Positions 3,226 to 29,038 of a stretch of 46,667 nt of DNA are shown here, piece by piece. Origin of the DNA: Escherichia phage C1; the sequence record NC_054651.1. One strand, 5' to 3'. Under the pieces are notes generated by a model. That model did not search any database. It was not told where the DNA came from and was given only the letters and a program-made list of their open reading frames with translations. The position numbers and the translations under genes are program-made. Every line of letters starts with the position of its first letter. Position 1 is the first letter of the stretch.

Positions 3226-7026
<3,801 letters not shown>

Positions 7027-10667: not shown

Positions 10668-10725
10668 TGATGTTGATTATATCATCTCAGTGGTGTTGAC
10701 ACCTGTGAGGTGGTGATGTAGATTC
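10668..10725. promoter_or_regulatory. divergent promoter module A: minus-strand extended -10 (TGATATAAT) and plus-strand TTGACA-17-TAGATT
   Basis: Plus strand GATTATATCA...GGTGTTGACA-N17-TAGATT; the reverse complement of the first part is TGATATAAT; near-copy of the module at 12774..12821. Confidence 0.5.
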
Positions 10726-10763: not shown

Positions 10764-11057
10764 ATGAAAATTAAAATGTTGATTGCATCAGCGCTATTGG
10801 CTTCTTCCTTTGCTGTCAGTGCGACATCTGAGGTTTGCAAAAACATTGGAGAAATCGCCATGAACACTGCTGATGTTCGCGATAACGGTATCAGCAAGAA
10901 TCTTGCCGAGGTGGTAGTTAAAGGTTCCGCAAAAAACAACGAATCAGCAGAAATAATCGGCCTTGCTATCGTAGAAATGGTTTATGCACGCAAGGATATG
11001 ACCAAAGAGCAGTTGCGTGATGTGGCTATTGCTTTGTGCGAAAAGAATGGAATGTAA
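10764..11057 (+). CDS. secreted small protein (signal peptide), unknown function
   Basis: 97 aa; N-terminus MKIKMLIASALLASSFAVSA is a typical Sec signal peptide; first gene of plus-strand moron cassette. Confidence 0.5.
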   Translation: MKIKMLIASALLASSFAVSATSEVCKNIGEIAMNTADVRDNGISKNLAEVVVKGSAKNNESAEIIGLAIVEMVYARKDMTKEQLRDVAIALCEKNGM

Positions 11058-11089
11058 TATCAGCAAGTTGCTAAAAATTGAGGTGAGTT

Positions 11090-11284
11090 ATGGACGTTGT
11101 TATTTTGCTGTTTTTTGTTGGTTTGGTGATATTTGCGTACCTTCTGCCATCTTTTGTGGCGCTGCAGCGCAAGCACGTAAACACGACTGCAATCTGCGTA
11201 CTGAATATTCTTATTGGATGGAGTTTTATTGGATGGGTAGCAGCGCTTGTTTGGGCATTAGTTAAGAGCGACGATAAAAAATGA
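11090..11284 (+). CDS. superinfection immunity (Imm-like) small membrane protein
   Basis: 64 aa, two hydrophobic helices; block YLLPSFVALQRKHVNTTAICVLNILIGWSFIGWVAALVWAL matches the remembered pattern of the superinfection-immunity family (LPS.IA..R.H.N...N...GW..IGW..AL.WA). Confidence 0.55.
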   Translation: MDVVILLFFVGLVIFAYLLPSFVALQRKHVNTTAICVLNILIGWSFIGWVAALVWALVKSDDKK

Positions 11285-11424
11285 ACGAACAAACAAAAGC
11301 TGACCTGATTTTCTACACTGATCTGTATGTTGATGCAGGTTACGACTACGAAGAAGCGGAGCGAATGGCGAAAGATTTGCTTCGTGTGATTGGTGTGATT
11401 TTTGATGAGGATAAGGTGATATGA
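11281..11424 (+). CDS. hypothetical small protein
   Basis: 47 aa ORF (below track threshold) with ATG overlapping preceding stop; translationally coupled position. Confidence 0.3.
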   Translation: MNEQTKADLIFYTDLYVDAGYDYEEAERMAKDLLRVIGVIFDEDKVI

Positions 11425-11795
11425 AAAATTATGAAGATATGAGTGATTTTGAGATTAACTCAGCAGTGCATAATGCTCTAATGCAGGAGCCGTACAAAAT
11501 TGAATTTCTTGGCAATGACAGAATAAGATGGGTGAGAGGTTCAACTGACGTAACGACAGGAAAAGTAGGGTATGGCAAGCGCTCTCTTAAAGACTATTGC
11601 AATAATCCAGCTGATGCTGAACCTATTATTATTGAAAACAGAATTGGCACCATTCCAGCACCAGATAATGGATTGTGGAAAGCTGCGCATAGAAAGGTTG
11701 GCAATGATGATACGCCATACCATTTTACTCAAGATAAAAACCCGCTCCGCGCCGCTATGATTGTTTTCCTGAAAATGAATGAGGATAAATTATGA
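11421..11795 (+). CDS. hypothetical protein (NinX/DUF2591-like N-terminus)
   Basis: 124 aa; N-terminal MSDFEINSAVHNALMQ resembles DUF2591; start overlaps upstream stop. Confidence 0.45.
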   Translation: MKNYEDMSDFEINSAVHNALMQEPYKIEFLGNDRIRWVRGSTDVTTGKVGYGKRSLKDYCNNPADAEPIIIENRIGTIPAPDNGLWKAAHRKVGNDDTPYHFTQDKNPLRAAMIVFLKMNEDKL

Positions 11796-11992
11796 TACAG
11801 TGGATTAAGTGTGGTGAGCGGATGCCTGAAGAAGGCCAAATGGTTCTCACGTCGTTTCGTGGCGTCGTTAGAACTGCGGCATGTAAAGTTGTCGACAACA
11901 TTGGCAGTAAGATTTTTGTTAGTGAATTAGACCGCTGTCACGGCATTCCAGCTACCCATTGGGTCAATCCACCGCAGCCGCCACAAGAATAA
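11792..11992 (+). CDS. hypothetical protein (DUF551-like)
   Basis: 66 aa; N-terminal WIKCGERMPEEGQMVL resembles the DUF551 signature. Confidence 0.4.
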   Translation: MIQWIKCGERMPEEGQMVLTSFRGVVRTAACKVVDNIGSKIFVSELDRCHGIPATHWVNPPQPPQE

Positions 11993-11994
11993 AA

Positions 11995-12022
11995 CAAAGC
12001 CCCTTTCGGGGCTTTTTTGTTT
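11995..12022. terminator. bidirectional rho-independent terminator
   Basis: AAAGCCCC-tttc-GGGGCTTT hairpin flanked by A-run and T-run; lies between convergent gene ends 11992 (+) and 12024 (-). Confidence 0.7.
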
Positions 12023-12023
12023 A

Positions 12024-12740
12024 TCAGGACACAGTGCAAGCCGTGCTGATGATAATTTCAGGGTCAGTGGACGAGTCAGTCACCGTGACGGTATATACAC
12101 CAGCGGTTGGGCTTGCCAGTGATGCGCCGGACTCACTGCCGACAACCACACCATCTTTGCGCCACACGTAGGTGTAAGGAGAGACGCCACCTTCAACAGC
12201 AACGGTTAACGGGCTGCCAGCCGTTCCAGTTGATTGCAGGTCGGTAGTGAATGCCAGAGGTTCAAGGCTTTCTACGGTAACGCTGTCAGAATCGTAAACC
12301 TTAAACTCAAGGCTGCCAGTAACGATGTCGTTTGTGCCACCTTCGTAGCTGATGCTGGTAATGTTGCAGTACGCGGTCACGATAGTCGCACCGGTCACCT
12401 CGCGCACCCACAAGGAAGGCTGGCGACGCGCTTTCAGTTCAGTGGTGTAAATCTCAACCAGACGATGGAAACCAAACTCATCGCTCGGGTCATTTTTGCG
12501 TATCTCAACCTCTGCGCTGATGGTCATATCAGAGCTGGTAACGAGAGTGGAAACAAAACCGCCAGTGGTGTCAGCTTCAGACGTGGTAGTCTGCGGCGAG
12601 TAGTCCACGCCTTTACTGGTGGTTGAGCCTAAATATTTCCAGTCTTCTGCTGCCGGAACTGCGTCACCGCATCCCTCAGCAAGGAACAGTCGAGTCATGC
12701 GACCGACCAGAACGCCTTTATCATTTGCACAAATAGCCAT
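12024..12740 (-). CDS. major tail protein (lambda V-like, C-terminal Ig-like domain)
   Basis: 238 aa; C-terminal 80 aa has Big_2-like Ig pattern (TVAVEGGVSPYTYVWRKDG...GVYTVTVTD); strong SD (GGAGA) before ATG. Confidence 0.65.
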   Translation of the reverse strand: MAICANDKGVLVGRMTRLFLAEGCGDAVPAAEDWKYLGSTTSKGVDYSPQTTTSEADTTGGFVSTLVTSSDMTISAEVEIRKNDPSDEFGFHRLVEIYTTELKARRQPSLWVREVTGATIVTAYCNITSISYEGGTNDIVTGSLEFKVYDSDSVTVESLEPLAFTTDLQSTGTAGSPLTVAVEGGVSPYTYVWRKDGVVVGSESGASLASPTAGVYTVTVTDSSTDPEIIISTACTVS

Positions 12741-12773
12741 TTCGATCTCCGAATTGTGTTAGCTGCTAACGTG

Positions 12774-12821
12774 GTGATTATATCACAGGTGTTGACAGTG
12801 ATTATTTTGTGGTGTAGATTG
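12774..12821. promoter_or_regulatory. divergent promoter module B: minus-strand extended -10 (TGTGATATAAT) for major tail gene and plus-strand TTGACA-17-TAGATT
   Basis: Plus strand TGATTATATCACAGGTGTTGACA-N17-TAGATT; near-copy of module A. Confidence 0.5.
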
Positions 12822-13262
12822 TATTTCAGATAGTTTTCGTGAGCGACTTTGCGGACTTTTTAGAAACTGACCACAAAGATAAATGCAAACGATGATGTTG
12901 TTCTGATGGCGGCGTAATAGCCTGTAAGTCAGCAAGGTCTTCCGATTCCTTGTAAACAAATTCGGCGCAGTGGCCCGCTGTGATTAATAATGGGCACACA
13001 ACAGGTAAGAGCATTGAGTCGATAATCGTGAAGAGTAGGCGCGCTTGGTTAGCCAGTGATCTTTCCGTTGTGGTAATGCCATCTTGATTATTTGGATAGG
13101 TTTGCATCCATTGTTATGCCAGTTTCAGTTAATCGCGAAACGCCACAACACTTAACATTCAGCATTAATTGAAAACAATTTTCCGTAATTATGTATAGGG
13201 GTATGCAGGGATTACGGAGCTGGATGTTAAGAAAGCACGCTGGCAATGCTTAAACCAGTAAT

Positions 13263-13291
13263 AAAGCCGCTTCATGCGGCTTTATTTATTT
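13263..13291. terminator. rho-independent terminator
   Basis: AAAGCCGC-ttcat-GCGGCTTT hairpin followed by TTTATTTATTT on plus strand; also immediately 3' of minus-strand gene 13286..13660. Confidence 0.6.
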
Positions 13292-13660
13292 CACAACCCG
13301 CAAAAGCAACTCATGTACGGGCCGCTTCTCTTCCGTCAGCATCGGCCTACCGAGCGGAGCCTGCAACTGGATGTAGTTAACGCACGAATCAATCGGATGC
13401 GTCTTGATGTATTCGATAATTTCATTGGCTTTAGCATCAACATCAGCAACGTTGTACTGGCCTTGCTTGCCAACAACATACAGAGAGAAATAGAAGTCAC
13501 CGCCGAGTCCATTCATCACCTGCGTGCCGCCGTTGGATTGCAGGACAATAAATTGCTCACTGCCATCTCCAGTGTCATTCCAGAACTGCAATTGCGAAGT
13601 CCAGCCATCATACAATCCAGCATCCTGAAGATATGTATCAACCAGTTCAAGCATGTTCAC
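13286..13660 (-). CDS. head-tail joining protein (tail terminator/neck position)
   Basis: 124 aa; last of four compact, overlapping small genes between capsid and major tail genes. Confidence 0.4.
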   Translation of the reverse strand: MNMLELVDTYLQDAGLYDGWTSQLQFWNDTGDGSEQFIVLQSNGGTQVMNGLGGDFYFSLYVVGKQGQYNVADVDAKANEIIEYIKTHPIDSCVNYIQLQAPLGRPMLTEEKRPVHELLLRVVK

Positions 13661-28926: not shown

Positions 28927-29004
28927 ATGTGGCCTATATGTAAGCATTGCGGGCGTATGTGCCTTAATAGTTGGTGCAGGAAATGCGATAAGCCATCGAA
29001 ATAA
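28927..29004 (+). CDS. tiny zinc-ribbon-like peptide (CxxC...CxxC)
   Basis: 25 aa ORF MWPICKHCGRMCLNSWCRKCDKPSK immediately before terminator. Confidence 0.25.
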   Translation: MWPICKHCGRMCLNSWCRKCDKPSK

Positions 29005-29005
29005 A

Positions 29006-29038
29006 ACCAAGCCCTCACTTAGAGGGCTTTTTGTTTGC
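29006..29038. terminator. bidirectional rho-independent terminator
   Basis: AAGCCCTC-actt-AGAGGGCTT hairpin, T-run; between convergent gene ends. Confidence 0.65.

What the first reader, a model, noticed from the sequence alone, without database searches (positions are those of the whole stretch)
12830..13290. Orphan promoter-terminator unit with no convincing ORF: candidate non-coding RNA
The plus-strand promoter of module B (TTGACA-17-TAGATT) points into a roughly 450 bp stretch ending at a strong hairpin with a T-run (about 13263..13291). All plus-strand frames are closed by frequent stops (longest ATG ORFs about 20 codons, no SD). The only ORF on the track here is a minus-strand 93 aa ORF (12826..13107) with no recognisable SD. 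The region could encode a regulatory or antisense RNA, or be the remnant of a deleted moron cassette.
Basis: partly seen in the sequence, partly recalled or inferred. Interest (0 to 1): 0.6.

Follow-up and report, generated by a model that had tools for sequence, protein, structure and literature searches.

The report
Phage tmRNA-like RNA lacking tRNA domain
The "orphan" promoter-terminator unit makes a structured non-coding RNA whose core is the message half of a tmRNA (the bacterial ribosome-rescue RNA): it keeps a conserved degradation-tag reading frame but has no tRNA-like half, and the same unannotated element occurs in hundreds of enterobacterial phages and prophages.

Summary
A strong sigma-70 promoter (12792-12820) and an intrinsic terminator (13260-13291) bracket about 465 nt with no credible ORF on either strand. 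The window is the whole genome of Escherichia phage S192.

The first 170 nt of the transcript (12829-13001) are homologous to the mRNA-like body of tmRNA. They hold pseudoknot PK1, a resume codon GCA at 12885, the tag frame ANDDVVLMAA followed by two stops, helix 5, and pseudoknots PK2 and PK3. Four lines of evidence support this:
- weak hits from three Rfam tmRNA models;
- covariation (89% of cells paired, against 36-48% in slid controls);
- a codon-wise substitution pattern (8 synonymous against 4 conservative changes, p=0.002);
- reciprocal covariance-model hits to 11 genuine phage tmRNAs.

No tRNA-like domain was found in the unit or anywhere in the genome.

The core matches 767 phage records from several unrelated phage groups. 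It also occurs in lambdoid prophages of 124 of 5,426 complete E. coli genomes. Almost none of these copies is annotated.

Downstream in S192 lie a long hairpin with a hypervariable loop, a non-canonical tRNA-like module and a conserved 3' domain. Relatives insert tRNA genes just before the terminator; S192 has none.

What the RNA is seems secure. How it works (split tmRNA, decoy or relic) remains inferred.

The parts
12792..12820 (+). Sigma-70-type promoter: TTGACA, 17 nt, TAGATT. The inferred transcription start is about 12827-12828, only 4-5 nt before PK1.
   Evidence: 10 of 12 matches. Essentially invariant (at most one or two base changes) in 28 related units whichever cassette follows. 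A Felix O1-type relative places its -10 box at the same distance from AGUUUUCG. The start site is inferred, not measured.
12829..13001 (+). tmRNA-like core, equivalent to the mRNA-like domain plus pseudoknots of a tmRNA.
   Evidence: Rfam tmRNA_permuted 27.3 bits and beta_tmRNA 18.1 bits, E about 1e-3, both below gathering score. Covariation on alignment A2. Model R1 scores 208 bits here and hits 11 ARAGORN-called phage tmRNAs.
12832..12877 (+). PK1, an H-type pseudoknot: S1 12832-12837 with 12863-12868; S2 12848-12854 with 12871-12877 (one C.A mismatch).
   Evidence: Read from the sequence. 84-88% of cells paired, with UUUG/CAAA changing to UUAU/AUAA in the Gamaleyavirus group. This is the weakest of the helices; the Felix O1 group aligns poorly here.
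12885..12920 (+). Tag reading frame: resume codon GCA (12885-12887), then GCA AAC GAT GAT GTT GTT CTG ATG GCG GCG = ANDDVVLMAA, with stops TAA (12915-12917) and TAG (12918-12920). The upstream context is AUAAAU, with U at -5 and A at -4.
   Evidence: Rfam alignments. ARAGORN recognises the same 'resume consensus' in relative L082. Tag variants run 10-12 codons and all end in AA or VA. The minimum number of changes by codon position is 13 at position 3, 6 at position 1 and 3 at position 2; 8 changes are synonymous and 4 non-synonymous, p=0.0024.
12903..12932 (+). Helix 5, which encloses the end of the tag and the stop codons: 12903-12906 with 12929-12932; 12908-12910 with 12920-22.
   Evidence: Outer helix 99.4% of cells paired; A-U changes to G-C in 9 sequences.
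12933..12965 (+). PK2: S1 12933-12937 with 12948-12952; S2 12942-12945 with 12962-12965.
   Evidence: S1 99.1% paired, with 3 of 5 pairs changed on both sides. S2 has 3 of 4 pairs changed on both sides. Matches the pseudoknot of the beta_tmRNA model.
12966..12995 (+). PK3: S1 12966-12970 with 12978-12982 (including an invariant G.U); S2 12973-12976 with 12992-12995. The connecting loop GAUUAAUAA is nearly invariant.
   Evidence: compensatory G-C to C-G and C-G to U-A changes. S2 expands from GCCC/GGGC to UCCCUGA/UCAGGGA (DS8, ASO78B) and to GGCGGGAG/CUCCCGCC (Kuttervirus).
12997..13072 (+). Long hairpin in the PK4 position: CACAAC-A-GG-U-AAGAGCA (12997-13013) pairs with UGAUCUU-U-CC-GUUGUG (13057-13072). 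The loop of about 43 nt is hypervariable among relatives. S192 has one extra mismatch in the stem.
   Evidence: Present after PK3 in every phage group, with different stem sequences and loops ranging from a few nt to about 90 nt. Predicted in the MFE fold. Aligned to the PK4 hairpin of RF00023 in a Felix O1-type relative, weakly.
13067..13149 (+). Non-canonical tRNA-like cassette ('family a'): GUUGUGG (13067-13073) with CCACAAC (13143-13149); T-like arm GUUUC-AGUUAAUCGC-GAAAC (13122-13141). It has no CCA and no G3:U70, and ARAGORN does not call it.
   Evidence: The T-like stem covaries (GUUUC/GAAAC to GUCUC/GAGAC in L009). In relatives the same helix encloses at least 4 unrelated cassettes, an HNH gene, or only 'CAG'. 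Its 5' strand competes with the preceding hairpin for pairing.
13150..13258 (+). Conserved 3' domain: helix A 13151-13163 with 13219-13231; helix B CCGUAAU 13183-13189 with AUUACGG 13211-13217, enclosing UAUGUAUAGGGGUAUGCAGG; then a small hairpin up to 13258.
   Evidence: Helix A shows C-G, U-A and U.G alternatives plus CCAGC/GCUGG changing to CCAUC/GAUGG. Helix B changes from GUAAU/AUUAC to GCAAU/AUUGC in the Gamaleyavirus group. The function of this domain is unknown.
13258..13263 (+). Slot where relatives carry tRNA genes (Met; Ile; Met+Arg; Ser+Arg). It is empty in S192.
   Evidence: 14 of 28 distinct units have no tRNA and 14 have one or two.
13260..13291 (+). Intrinsic terminator for the + strand. 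The GC core is GCCGC (13266-13270) with GCGGC (13276-13280), followed by UUUAUUUAUUU. It overlaps the stop of the convergent tail-terminator gene.
   Evidence: On the minus strand the hairpin is followed by AUUACUGG, with no U-run, so late transcription can read through (read from the sequence).

Best explanation
The unit is a small non-coding-RNA operon.

Its promoter-proximal and best-conserved product is a tmRNA-derived RNA. This RNA keeps the whole mRNA-like body of a tmRNA: PK1, the resume context, a 10-codon tag frame (ANDDVVLMAA) with a double stop, helix 5, PK2, PK3 and a terminal long hairpin. It has lost the tRNA-like domain at both junctions.

The rest of the S192 transcript is a string of exchangeable structured cassettes: a hairpin with a variable loop, a tRNA-like module and a 3' domain. 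In relatives bona fide tRNAs follow as well, and a single terminator closes the unit.

Shown: the homology to the tmRNA body, the RNA structure, the + strand orientation, the preservation of the tag frame at the amino-acid level, the absence of a canonical tRNA-like domain, and the wide horizontal distribution.

Inferred: because the tag frame and the -5U/-4A resume context are under purifying selection, the RNA most likely still serves as a tag template for the host's SmpB-dependent trans-translation. That requires an alanine-accepting tRNA-like partner supplied in trans (host or phage), making it in effect a new kind of split tmRNA. Stalled ribosomes in infected cells would then be released while adding a phage-specified tag.

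My confidence that the RNA is tmRNA-derived and lacks the tRNA-like domain is about 0.9. My confidence in the tag-template mechanism is about 0.35.
For: Identity:
- Three Rfam tmRNA models hit the tag/pseudoknot region in S192, EC1-UPM (E=9e-5) and a Felix O1-type phage.
- ARAGORN's own resume-consensus detector fires on L082.
- Model R1, built only from elements without a tRNA-like domain, hits the mRNA-like domain of all 11 ARAGORN-called phage tmRNAs at full model length, E 7e-7 to 3e-3. It does not hit E. coli ssrA.

Structure: 37 proposed pairs are 89.2% paired, against 36-48% when the partners are slid. Thirteen pairs change on both sides. The covariation score is 0.208 against 0.105 in shuffles, reached by 0 of 500 shuffles. 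Invariant G.U pairs fit only the + strand.

Translation-type constraint:
- Tag lengths of 10, 11 and 12 codons keep the frame.
- Changes concentrate at third codon positions (13, 6 and 3 for positions 3, 1 and 2).
- 8 synonymous against 4 conservative changes, where 24% synonymous is expected; p=0.0024.
- The stop codon is always kept, and the overlapping AUG frame is not.

Autonomy: in some Gamaleyavirus-type phages the gene is only core, hairpin, about 35 nt and a terminator.

Spread: 767 phage records. 124 of 5,426 E. coli genomes carry it in lambdoid prophages between Q and the holin gene, at 97% identity to S192.
Against: - No tRNA-like domain exists in the unit or the genome. ARAGORN finds 0 genes, Rfam at E<=0.5 finds nothing else, and the only T-loop-like motif in the genome is a single one-mismatch match at chance level, far from the unit.
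- None of the tRNA-like cassettes of S192 or its close relatives has G3:U70, so known trans-translation cannot start on this RNA alone.
- No trans partner was identified, and there is no special complementarity to E. coli tmRNA.
- The core is dispensable for S192-like phages: 8 of 28 units carry a different cassette behind the same promoter and 2 carry neither.
- The Rfam scores are below gathering thresholds.
- The codon test rests on only 12 distinct variants.
- There is no expression, processing or tagging data.
Confidence: 0.55

Rival explanations
1. Decoy or competitor. The RNA mimics the body of tmRNA in order to titrate something that binds that part, such as ribosomal protein S1, RNase R, ribosomes primed by tmRNA, or a defence nuclease or sensor that recognises tmRNA-like RNA. 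It would modulate or block host ribosome rescue rather than serve as a template.
For: The missing tRNA-like domain makes a template role mechanistically hard. There is a mirror-image precedent: mycobacteriophage DS6A carries a gene for the tRNA-like domain only, and such a molecule inhibits tmRNA when expressed in E. coli (PMC4131195, PMC11915505). The element sits in accessory, mosaic RNA islands alongside tRNAs and odd tRNA-like RNAs, the kind of locus expected for counter-defence cargo. The unit has a strong promoter, and in prophages it lies in the PR' late operon.
Against: A decoy does not need an intact reading frame. Yet frame, stop codon, tag length in multiples of three, the AA/VA C-termini and synonymous third-position changes are all preserved. 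SmpB, the obvious target, binds the tRNA-like domain, which is absent (established knowledge).
Confidence: 0.25
2. Relic or scaffold. The core is a decaying remnant of a once complete phage tmRNA. It survives only as the 5' leader or processing scaffold of a tRNA/small-RNA operon, and in S192 (no tRNA, one module deleted, a stem mismatch) the whole unit is a functionless leftover.
For: Relatives place tRNAs at the 3' end of the same unit, and S192 has lost them. S192 lacks a roughly 146-bp hairpin module present in Bas77 and PSM3377, and its hairpin stem has a C-to-A change. The core is replaced or deleted in 10 of 28 related units; L013 retains only a PK3 fragment.
Against: The core is kept with compensatory changes in several unrelated phage groups and in prophages. 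In some Gamaleyavirus-type phages it stands alone with its own terminator and no tRNA. The S192 core equals the family consensus (208 bits, the top score). A relic would accumulate frameshifts in the tag, and none was seen in about 95 copies.
Confidence: 0.12
3. Antisense or cis regulator. The + strand transcript acts by pairing with the minus-strand late mRNA that must cross this gap between the tail-terminator and major-tail genes. Alternatively it acts as an Hfq-type sRNA on host targets.
For: The unit is convergent with the structural operon, and the terminator works in one direction only, so late transcripts read through and would be fully complementary. The 3' end is a hairpin plus U-run, as in Hfq-binding sRNAs.
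Against: The same core occurs in quite different contexts: co-directional inside tRNA arrays (Felix O1 type), in a 2-kb non-coding island (EC1-UPM) and inside the lambdoid late operon. The antisense relationship is therefore not conserved. Conservation follows RNA helices and a codon frame, not a target site.
Confidence: 0.05
4. Protein-coding after all: the 93-aa minus-strand ORF (12826-13107), or a small + strand ORF, is the real gene.
For: The ORF exists. Some annotators have called ORFs here in relatives, for example Bas77_0057 of 160 aa.
Against: The ORF changes frame between close relatives. It has no Pfam or PHROG match and an implausible composition. Indels that are not multiples of three are tolerated. 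It is not annotated in the S192 record.
Confidence: 0.02

Closest known systems
tmRNA (SsrA; Rfam RF00023, and permuted forms RF04321 / RF01850)
   Same: PK1; a single-stranded resume context with U at -5 and A at -4; a GCA resume codon; a 10-codon AND...AA tag with a double stop inside helix 5; two H-type pseudoknots and a further hairpin downstream. Sequence and structure similarity is detectable in both directions.
   Different: No acceptor stem, no G3:U70, no T-arm, no CCA and no helix 2 joining the ends. The transcript starts 4-5 nt before PK1. Scores are below Rfam gathering thresholds, and ARAGORN does not call it.
Two-piece (circularly permuted) tmRNAs of Alpha- and Betaproteobacteria, cyanobacteria and some phages (e.g. 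loci L051, L091)
   Same: They show that tmRNA function can be divided between two RNA chains held together by base pairing. The tag start (ANDN/ANDD V...) and the PK after the tag resemble these forms most closely.
   Different: In known two-piece forms both halves of the tRNA-like domain are encoded next to the coding piece, and the coding piece begins with the 5' acceptor strand. Here neither half is present.
Mycobacteriophage DS6A 'TLD-only' tmRNA and other CDS-less tmRNAs (PMC4131195, PMC11915505)
   Same: A phage-borne partial tmRNA: a precedent that phages keep one half of the molecule.
   Different: DS6A keeps the opposite half. It retains the tRNA-like domain and lacks the tag; this element retains the tag and pseudoknots and lacks the tRNA-like domain.
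Phage tRNA clusters with co-transcribed stable RNAs of unknown function (T4 tRNA region with RNAs C and D; recalled from memory, not checked here)
   Same: Small structured RNAs co-transcribed with tRNAs from one promoter, probably released by tRNA-processing enzymes. In Felix O1-type phages the core sits inside the tRNA array.
   Different: No sequence relationship was tested. S192 has no tRNA at all.

Membership tests
tmRNA (SsrA) | tRNA-like domain: 7-bp acceptor stem with G3:U70, T-arm, discriminator A and a 3' CCA that can be charged with alanine | tested here: not met
   ARAGORN finds 0 genes in the whole genome. Rfam at gathering score and at E<=0.5 finds no tRNA or tmRNA tRNA-like-domain hit. 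The only GGTTCGANTCC-like match in the genome is one at chance level, far from the unit. The acceptor-like helices in the unit have U3-A70 or G3-C70 and no CCA.
tmRNA (SsrA) | Tag reading frame that starts at a resume codon without AUG or SD, ends in a stop, and encodes a C-terminal degron (...AA) | tested here: met
   GCA at 12885, ANDDVVLMAA, TAA TAG. The frame is conserved in relatives with a codon-type substitution pattern.
tmRNA (SsrA) | Pseudoknot PK1 upstream of the tag and further pseudoknots downstream | tested here: met
   PK1, PK2 and PK3 are supported by covariation on 45 sequences. PK1 support is the weakest.
tmRNA (SsrA) | Helix 2 (P2) closing the pseudoknot ring onto the tRNA-like domain | tested here: not met
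   The 5' end of the transcript lies at PK1. No conserved partner for the 5' GAUAG/UUUUCG segment was found after PK3 in the different phage groups.
tmRNA (SsrA) | Curated family score (Rfam gathering threshold) | tested here: not met
   27.3 bits against 47 (RF04321) and 18.1 against 84 (RF01850).
tmRNA (SsrA) | Acts with SmpB on stalled ribosomes and tags proteins | not testable with these tools
   No SmpB homologue is encoded by the phage (tblastn, no hit below E=1; the query sequence was recalled from memory). The host has SmpB. Function needs experiments.
Two-piece / permuted tmRNA | Acceptor piece (T-arm, 3' acceptor strand, CCA) encoded upstream of a coding piece that begins with the 5' acceptor strand | tested here: not met
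   No such pieces flank the core in S192. ARAGORN's 'permuted' call in L082 stitches together parts of unrelated tRNA genes.
Phage tRNA operon | One or more canonical tRNA genes in the transcription unit | tested here: not met
   None in S192. Present in 14 of 28 related units at the position corresponding to 13258-13263.
Protein-coding moron | A conserved ORF between its own promoter and terminator | tested here: not met
Hfq-dependent sRNA | Intrinsic terminator with U-tail that binds Hfq; a seed region pairing with target mRNAs | not tested
   Only the terminator with its U-run is seen. No target search was done.

The most novel reading that the evidence does not exclude
Enterobacterial phages and prophages carry a widespread, so far unannotated class of 'tag-template' RNAs: tmRNA bodies without a tRNA-like domain. 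These would be read by ribosomes during rescue, either as one chain of a new type of split tmRNA (with a host or phage tRNA-like partner) or through a template-loading route not yet described. The phage would then decide which tag, and so which fate, stalled host or phage polypeptides receive.
Probability: 0.3. Interest if true: 0.9.

Novelty: new variant of a known kind. Interest (0 to 1): 0.75.

Why it matters
[quoted passage not shown] The known exceptions either keep both domains on two chains or keep only the tRNA-like part.

This element is the opposite case: an mRNA-like domain alone, with its tag frame still under coding-type selection. It is mobile between unrelated virulent phage groups and lambdoid prophages, including those of O26 and other pathogenic E. 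coli. It lies in stretches that current annotation pipelines leave blank.

If it is read by ribosomes, it reveals a new way to assemble or load a rescue template, and a way for phages to re-programme protein tagging. If it is a decoy, it is a new anti-rescue or counter-defence RNA.

Either way it gives a concrete, testable handle (a defined tag peptide) in well-studied model phages such as Felix O1, the BASEL collection phages and lambdoid prophages. It also argues that genome annotation should look for partial tmRNAs.

Tried and rejected
1. Canonical tmRNA or tRNA. ARAGORN and Rfam at gathering score found nothing in the window. Only E-value-mode scans revealed the tag region.

2. Searches for a hidden tRNA-like domain:
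- The 3' domain 'GGGGUAUG.AGGGAUUACGG' looks like the tmRNA 5' end GGGGCUGAUUCUGGAUUCGACGG. Both segments turned out to be strands of local helices that covary (CCGUAAU/AUUACGG and CUUAACAUUCAGC/GCUGGAUGUUAAG). Rejected.
- The post-PK3 hairpin read as an acceptor/T minihelix: it has G3-C70, no CCA, and its loop is hypervariable. Rejected.
- PK3 read as a TYMV-like pseudoknotted acceptor: 'A-CCA' follows it only in Gamaleyavirus-type copies. Not general.
- The GUUGUGG...CCACAAC module has U3-A70 and no CCA.
- A genome-wide T-loop and acceptor scan found nothing credible in S192.

3. Pairing between the variable hairpin loop and the variable tRNA-like cassette. The same loop type occurs with different cassettes, so they re-assort independently. 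Rejected.

4. Pairing with host tmRNA. The best duplex with E. coli ssrA is no better than with shuffled sequence: 26 of 30 shuffles were lower (one search timed out).

5. ARAGORN 'tmRNA' calls in L038 and L082. Both borrow the tRNA-like parts from neighbouring tRNA genes. The L038 tag is spurious; the L082 tag is the real one.

6. The overlapping AUG frame (MQTMMLF). It is not conserved.

7. The minus-strand ORF. Rejected.

8. Phage-encoded SmpB. None found.

9. Literature. Seven full-text searches, including the tag peptides themselves, found no description of such elements. The tmRNA database papers list only phage tmRNAs that have a tRNA-like domain. The library is incomplete, so prior description cannot be excluded.

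10. Rfam identity of the alternative 5' cassette. None found.
Full report
WHAT THE WINDOW IS. The 46,667-bp window is the complete record of Escherichia phage S192 (ON239132.1, genus Deseoctovirus), read as its reverse complement. The finding lies in a 545-bp gap between two minus-strand genes. One is the major tail protein gene (12024-12740). The other (13286-13660) is a tail-terminator protein gene by Pfam (PF23842, E=1e-41). The S192 record annotates nothing in the gap.

CHECKING THE OBSERVATION.
- Promoter. TTGACA-17-TAGATT lies at 12792-12820 on the + strand (10 of 12 matches). Such sites are not enriched locally (8 found, 8.8 expected). This one is essentially invariant (at most one or two base changes) in 28 distinct related units, whichever RNA follows it.
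- Terminator. It is real, although the scanner missed it. It forms an 11-bp hairpin (13260-13286, GC core GCCGC/GCGGC) followed by UUUAUUUAUUU. Only the loop varies among relatives. On the other strand no U-run follows the hairpin, so late transcription can cross it.
- ORFs. The + strand has only short non-ATG ORFs, plus one 44-aa ATG ORF that runs through the terminator. The 93-aa minus-strand ORF exists, but relatives keep an ORF there only by changing frame. It has no Pfam or PHROG match.
- Folding. The transcript folds better than all shuffles (z=-4.08). Its complement does too (z=-4.14), so folding energy alone does not choose the strand.

WHAT IT IS: THE CORE. Rfam at gathering score and ARAGORN find nothing. 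An E-value scan of 12700-13350 gives two + strand hits: tmRNA_permuted (27.3 bits, E=0.0012) and beta_tmRNA (18.1 bits, E=0.0014). Both align the same stretch to the tmRNA tag and the pseudoknot after it.

Read directly, the sequence is AUAAAU|GCA AAC GAU GAU GUU GUU CUG AUG GCG GCG UAA UAG (12885-12920), that is ANDDVVLMAA followed by two stops. The E. coli tag is ANDENYALAA. The U at -5 and A at -4 correspond to U85 and A86, which set the frame in E. coli tmRNA (established knowledge, recalled from memory).

Around the tag the sequence forms the following elements (coordinates are in the parts list):
- an H-type pseudoknot upstream of the tag (PK1);
- a helix enclosing the stop codons (helix 5);
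- two H-type pseudoknots downstream (PK2, PK3);
- a long hairpin after PK3.

I collected related loci from phage records and IMG/VR contigs. Forty-five non-redundant cores were aligned (A2). On the 37 proposed pairs:
- 89.2% of cells pair, against 36-48% when partners are slid by 1-3 columns;
- 13 pairs change on both sides;
- 104 cells carry a change on both sides, against 33.5 in shuffles;
- the covariation score is 0.208 against 0.105, reached by 0 of 500 shuffles.

PK2 and PK3 carry most of the signal, and PK1 is the weakest. Invariant G.U pairs (for example in PK3 S1) would be C.A on the other strand. This places the RNA on the + strand.

IS THE TAG FRAME REAL? Across about 95 copies without a tRNA-like domain the tags are ANDDVVLMAA, ANDNVFLAVA (Felix O1 type), ANDNVVLMAA, ANDDVILMAA, ANDDVVLIAA, ANDDVVLMVA, ANEEMYLAVA and ANDSEVLMAA (PhaxI). 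All are in frame, all end in AA or VA, and all are followed by a stop.
- The minimum number of changes per codon position is 13 at position 3, 6 at position 1 and 3 at position 2.
- Within the S192-type tag, 8 distinct single-site variants are synonymous and 4 are conservative (D/N, V/I, M/I, A/V). Only 24% synonymous would be expected (p=0.0024).
- The overlapping AUG frame is not preserved.

This is the signature of a translated frame, although the sample of variants is small.

RELATION TO GENUINE tmRNAs. The same resume motif occurs in IMG/VR viral contigs where ARAGORN calls complete tmRNAs. Some are compact standard forms (about 240 nt, ANDNVA(I/L)SLAA, ANDNVALPMAA). Others are permuted forms (ANDN/DVYMVRAAA). 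In species-representative bacterial genomes the motif belongs to ordinary tmRNAs of Bdellovibrionota and Alphaproteobacteria.

A covariance model built only from the elements without a tRNA-like domain (R1) hits the mRNA-like domain of all 11 of those phage tmRNAs at full model length (E 7e-7 to 3e-3). It scores 135-208 bits on elements without that domain and does not hit E. coli ssrA.

Homology begins at the GAUAG that follows the 5' half of the tRNA-like domain in complete tmRNAs. It ends about where their T-arm would start. The tRNA-like domain has in effect been removed at both junctions.

THE MISSING tRNA-LIKE DOMAIN. S192 has no tRNA or tmRNA call. Rfam finds nothing else tRNA- or tmRNA-like at E<=0.5. 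The only T-loop-like motif is one chance-level match. A custom acceptor/T-arm scan found no credible candidate. There is no SmpB homologue.

The promoter puts the 5' end 4-5 nt before PK1. A Felix O1-type variant has its -10 box at the same distance. In several Gamaleyavirus-type contigs the whole gene is core, hairpin, about 35 nt and an intrinsic terminator. The minimal, self-contained gene therefore has no tRNA-like part.

THE REST OF THE S192 TRANSCRIPT.
- After PK3 comes a 16-bp interrupted hairpin (12997-13072). Its stem motif (UAAGRGYAU...) recurs after PK3 in every phage group. Its loop is hypervariable (from a few nt to about 90 nt), and some loop types are shared between unrelated phages.
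- Next is a helix GUUGUGG...CCACAAC (13067-13149). In relatives it encloses at least four unrelated tRNA-like cassettes, an HNH endonuclease gene (ZBSTP8), or just 'CAG'.
- Next is a conserved 3' domain with two covarying helices (13150-13258).
- Exactly between 13258 and 13263, half of the relatives carry tRNA genes: Met, Ile, Met+Arg or Ser+Arg.

S192 has no tRNA. It lacks a roughly 146-bp extra hairpin module present in Bas77 and PSM3377, and it has one extra mismatch in the hairpin stem.

Among 28 distinct S192-like units, 17 carry the tmRNA-like core, 8 carry a different structured cassette of about 105 nt behind the identical promoter, 1 carries both and 2 carry neither. The locus behaves as an island of exchangeable RNA cassettes, and the core is accessory for this phage group.

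DISTRIBUTION. A blastn search with 12821-13000 finds 767 phage records, 182 of them covering 80% or more of the query. The hosts named are Salmonella, Escherichia, Klebsiella, Erwinia, Shigella, Citrobacter, Serratia and Enterobacter. The groups are:
- Deseoctovirus, Skatevirus and Akiravirus-type siphoviruses;
- Gamaleyavirus (the EC1-UPM group);
- Kuttervirus (Ackermannviridae);
- Felixounavirus, where the core sits inside the tRNA array between tRNA-Ile and tRNA-Arg.

Almost all hits carry no annotation. The core is also in lambdoid prophages, after PR'/tR' and before the holin gene. These occur in 124 of 5,426 complete E. coli genomes, at up to 97% identity to S192 and again unannotated. 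Such identity between a virulent siphovirus and temperate prophages implies recent horizontal transfer.

HOW IT MOST LIKELY WORKS. What is shown: a + strand structured RNA, homologous to the tmRNA body, with a frame kept at the amino-acid level and no tRNA-like domain.

What is inferred: known trans-translation needs an alanyl-tRNA-like domain to accept the nascent chain and to pull the template into the ribosome. If the frame is read, a partner must therefore come from elsewhere. Because the minimal gene is mobile across unrelated phages of Enterobacterales, a host-supplied partner or factor is the simplest assumption. I found no complementarity to E. coli tmRNA.

One lead: in Felix O1 and its closest relatives, 10 nt after the core plus hairpin, lies an 82-nt D-arm-less tRNA-like RNA. 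It has C1-G72, G2-C71, G3:U70, G4-C69, A73 and CCA, which apart from the first pair is the alanine identity set. ARAGORN does not call it. It is itself widespread in other large phages. S192 has nothing like it.

I therefore rank the hypotheses as follows:
- tag template of a split tmRNA or other new rescue route, about 0.35;
- decoy or competitor of the rescue machinery or of a tmRNA-sensing defence, about 0.25;
- relic or leader, about 0.12;
- the antisense and protein-coding ideas are minor.

COMPARISON WITH WHAT IS KNOWN. The element works like, and descends from, the mRNA-like half of tmRNA. It fails the defining tests for membership: no tRNA-like domain, no helix 2 and a score below the gathering threshold. 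I therefore file it as a new variant, not as a tmRNA. The nearest precedent is the mirror image, the gene for the tRNA-like domain alone in mycobacteriophage DS6A, which inhibits tmRNA (PMC4131195, PMC11915505).

The tmRNA database papers I could read list phage tmRNAs only of the kind that has a tRNA-like domain. Seven full-text searches, including the tag peptides, found no description of this element. The library is incomplete, so I cannot exclude an earlier report.

VERDICT. Its interpretation is upgraded from 'possible ncRNA' to a specific and unexpected identity. What the RNA is seems secure; how it works is open and directly testable through the predicted tag peptide.

Noticed in passing
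window 10696-10724 (+), with 10764-11992 and 11996-12015: A second copy of the same promoter type (GATTATATCA..GGTGTTGACA-17-TAGATT) drives a + strand cluster of small genes inserted among the minus-strand tail genes. In the related phage Akira one of these genes is annotated as a superinfection-immunity protein. A bidirectional hairpin closes the cluster.
   Followed up: partly
L009, L016, L018, L025, L028, L033 (first ~105 nt after the promoter); also L007 1122-1275: In 8 of 28 S192-like units the tmRNA-like core is replaced, behind the identical promoter, by a different structured cassette (GGAUUUAACAGAGAUUGG...CCAAUCC...CCGGACGCGUAACCGG). It has no Rfam match. ZBSTP8 (L007) has both.
   Followed up: partly
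L007 1538-2140: An HNH homing-endonuclease ORF sits inside the GUUGUGG...CCACAAC helix of the RNA unit in Salmonella phage ZBSTP8. This suggests that the helix loop is an insertion hot spot.
   Followed up: no
L046 2116-2197 (Felix O1 group); 296 phage records: An 82-nt D-arm-less tRNA-like RNA carries G2-C71, G3:U70, G4-C69, A73 and an encoded CCA (alanine identity) together with a UCU anticodon-like loop. It lies 10 nt downstream of the tmRNA-like RNA and ARAGORN does not call it. The same element occurs in rV5-like, jumbo and other phages, sometimes annotated 'tRNA-OTHER'.
   Followed up: partly
L039 1927-1992, 1995-2118, ~2219-2315; L040 ~1290-1353, 1699-1767, 1770-1895: EC1-UPM (Gamaleyavirus) and PhaxI (Kuttervirus) carry several tRNA-like elements next to the core, in 1-2 kb stretches with no annotation. 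They have canonical T-arms and mostly an encoded CCA, with 60-135 nt between the acceptor strands. ARAGORN does not call any of them.
   Followed up: partly
L082 minus strand ~2478-2520: The order T-arm, ACCCUUC, G, CCA, AACA, GAAGGGU, UA, D-arm puts the 3' half of a tRNA-like structure directly before its matching 5' half. It looks like a circularly permuted tRNA-like gene in a Felix O1-type phage.
   Followed up: no
L049 9535-9610: A Gamaleyavirus-type contig carries a tRNA with anticodon CUA (amber-suppressor-like; ARAGORN labels it tRNA-Pyl) in its tRNA cluster.
   Followed up: no
L072 8940-9440 (minus strand); L128 2125-3198: In lambdoid prophages the core lies between the Q antiterminator (after tR') and the holin gene, flanked on both sides by copies of the variable-loop hairpin. 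PGAP leaves this roughly 1-kb gap unannotated in 124 E. coli genomes.
   Followed up: partly
window 28966-29035 (+): Weak Rfam Trp_leader-like hit (27.8 bits, gathering score 41, E=0.13).
   Followed up: no
L144 (Pantoea eucrina scaffold NZ_JAOBTT010000003.1) ~3350-3900: A 20-kb scaffold of a Pantoea genome assembly contains an S192-like phage RNA unit with the same promoter and core. It is probably phage DNA within the assembly.
   Followed up: no
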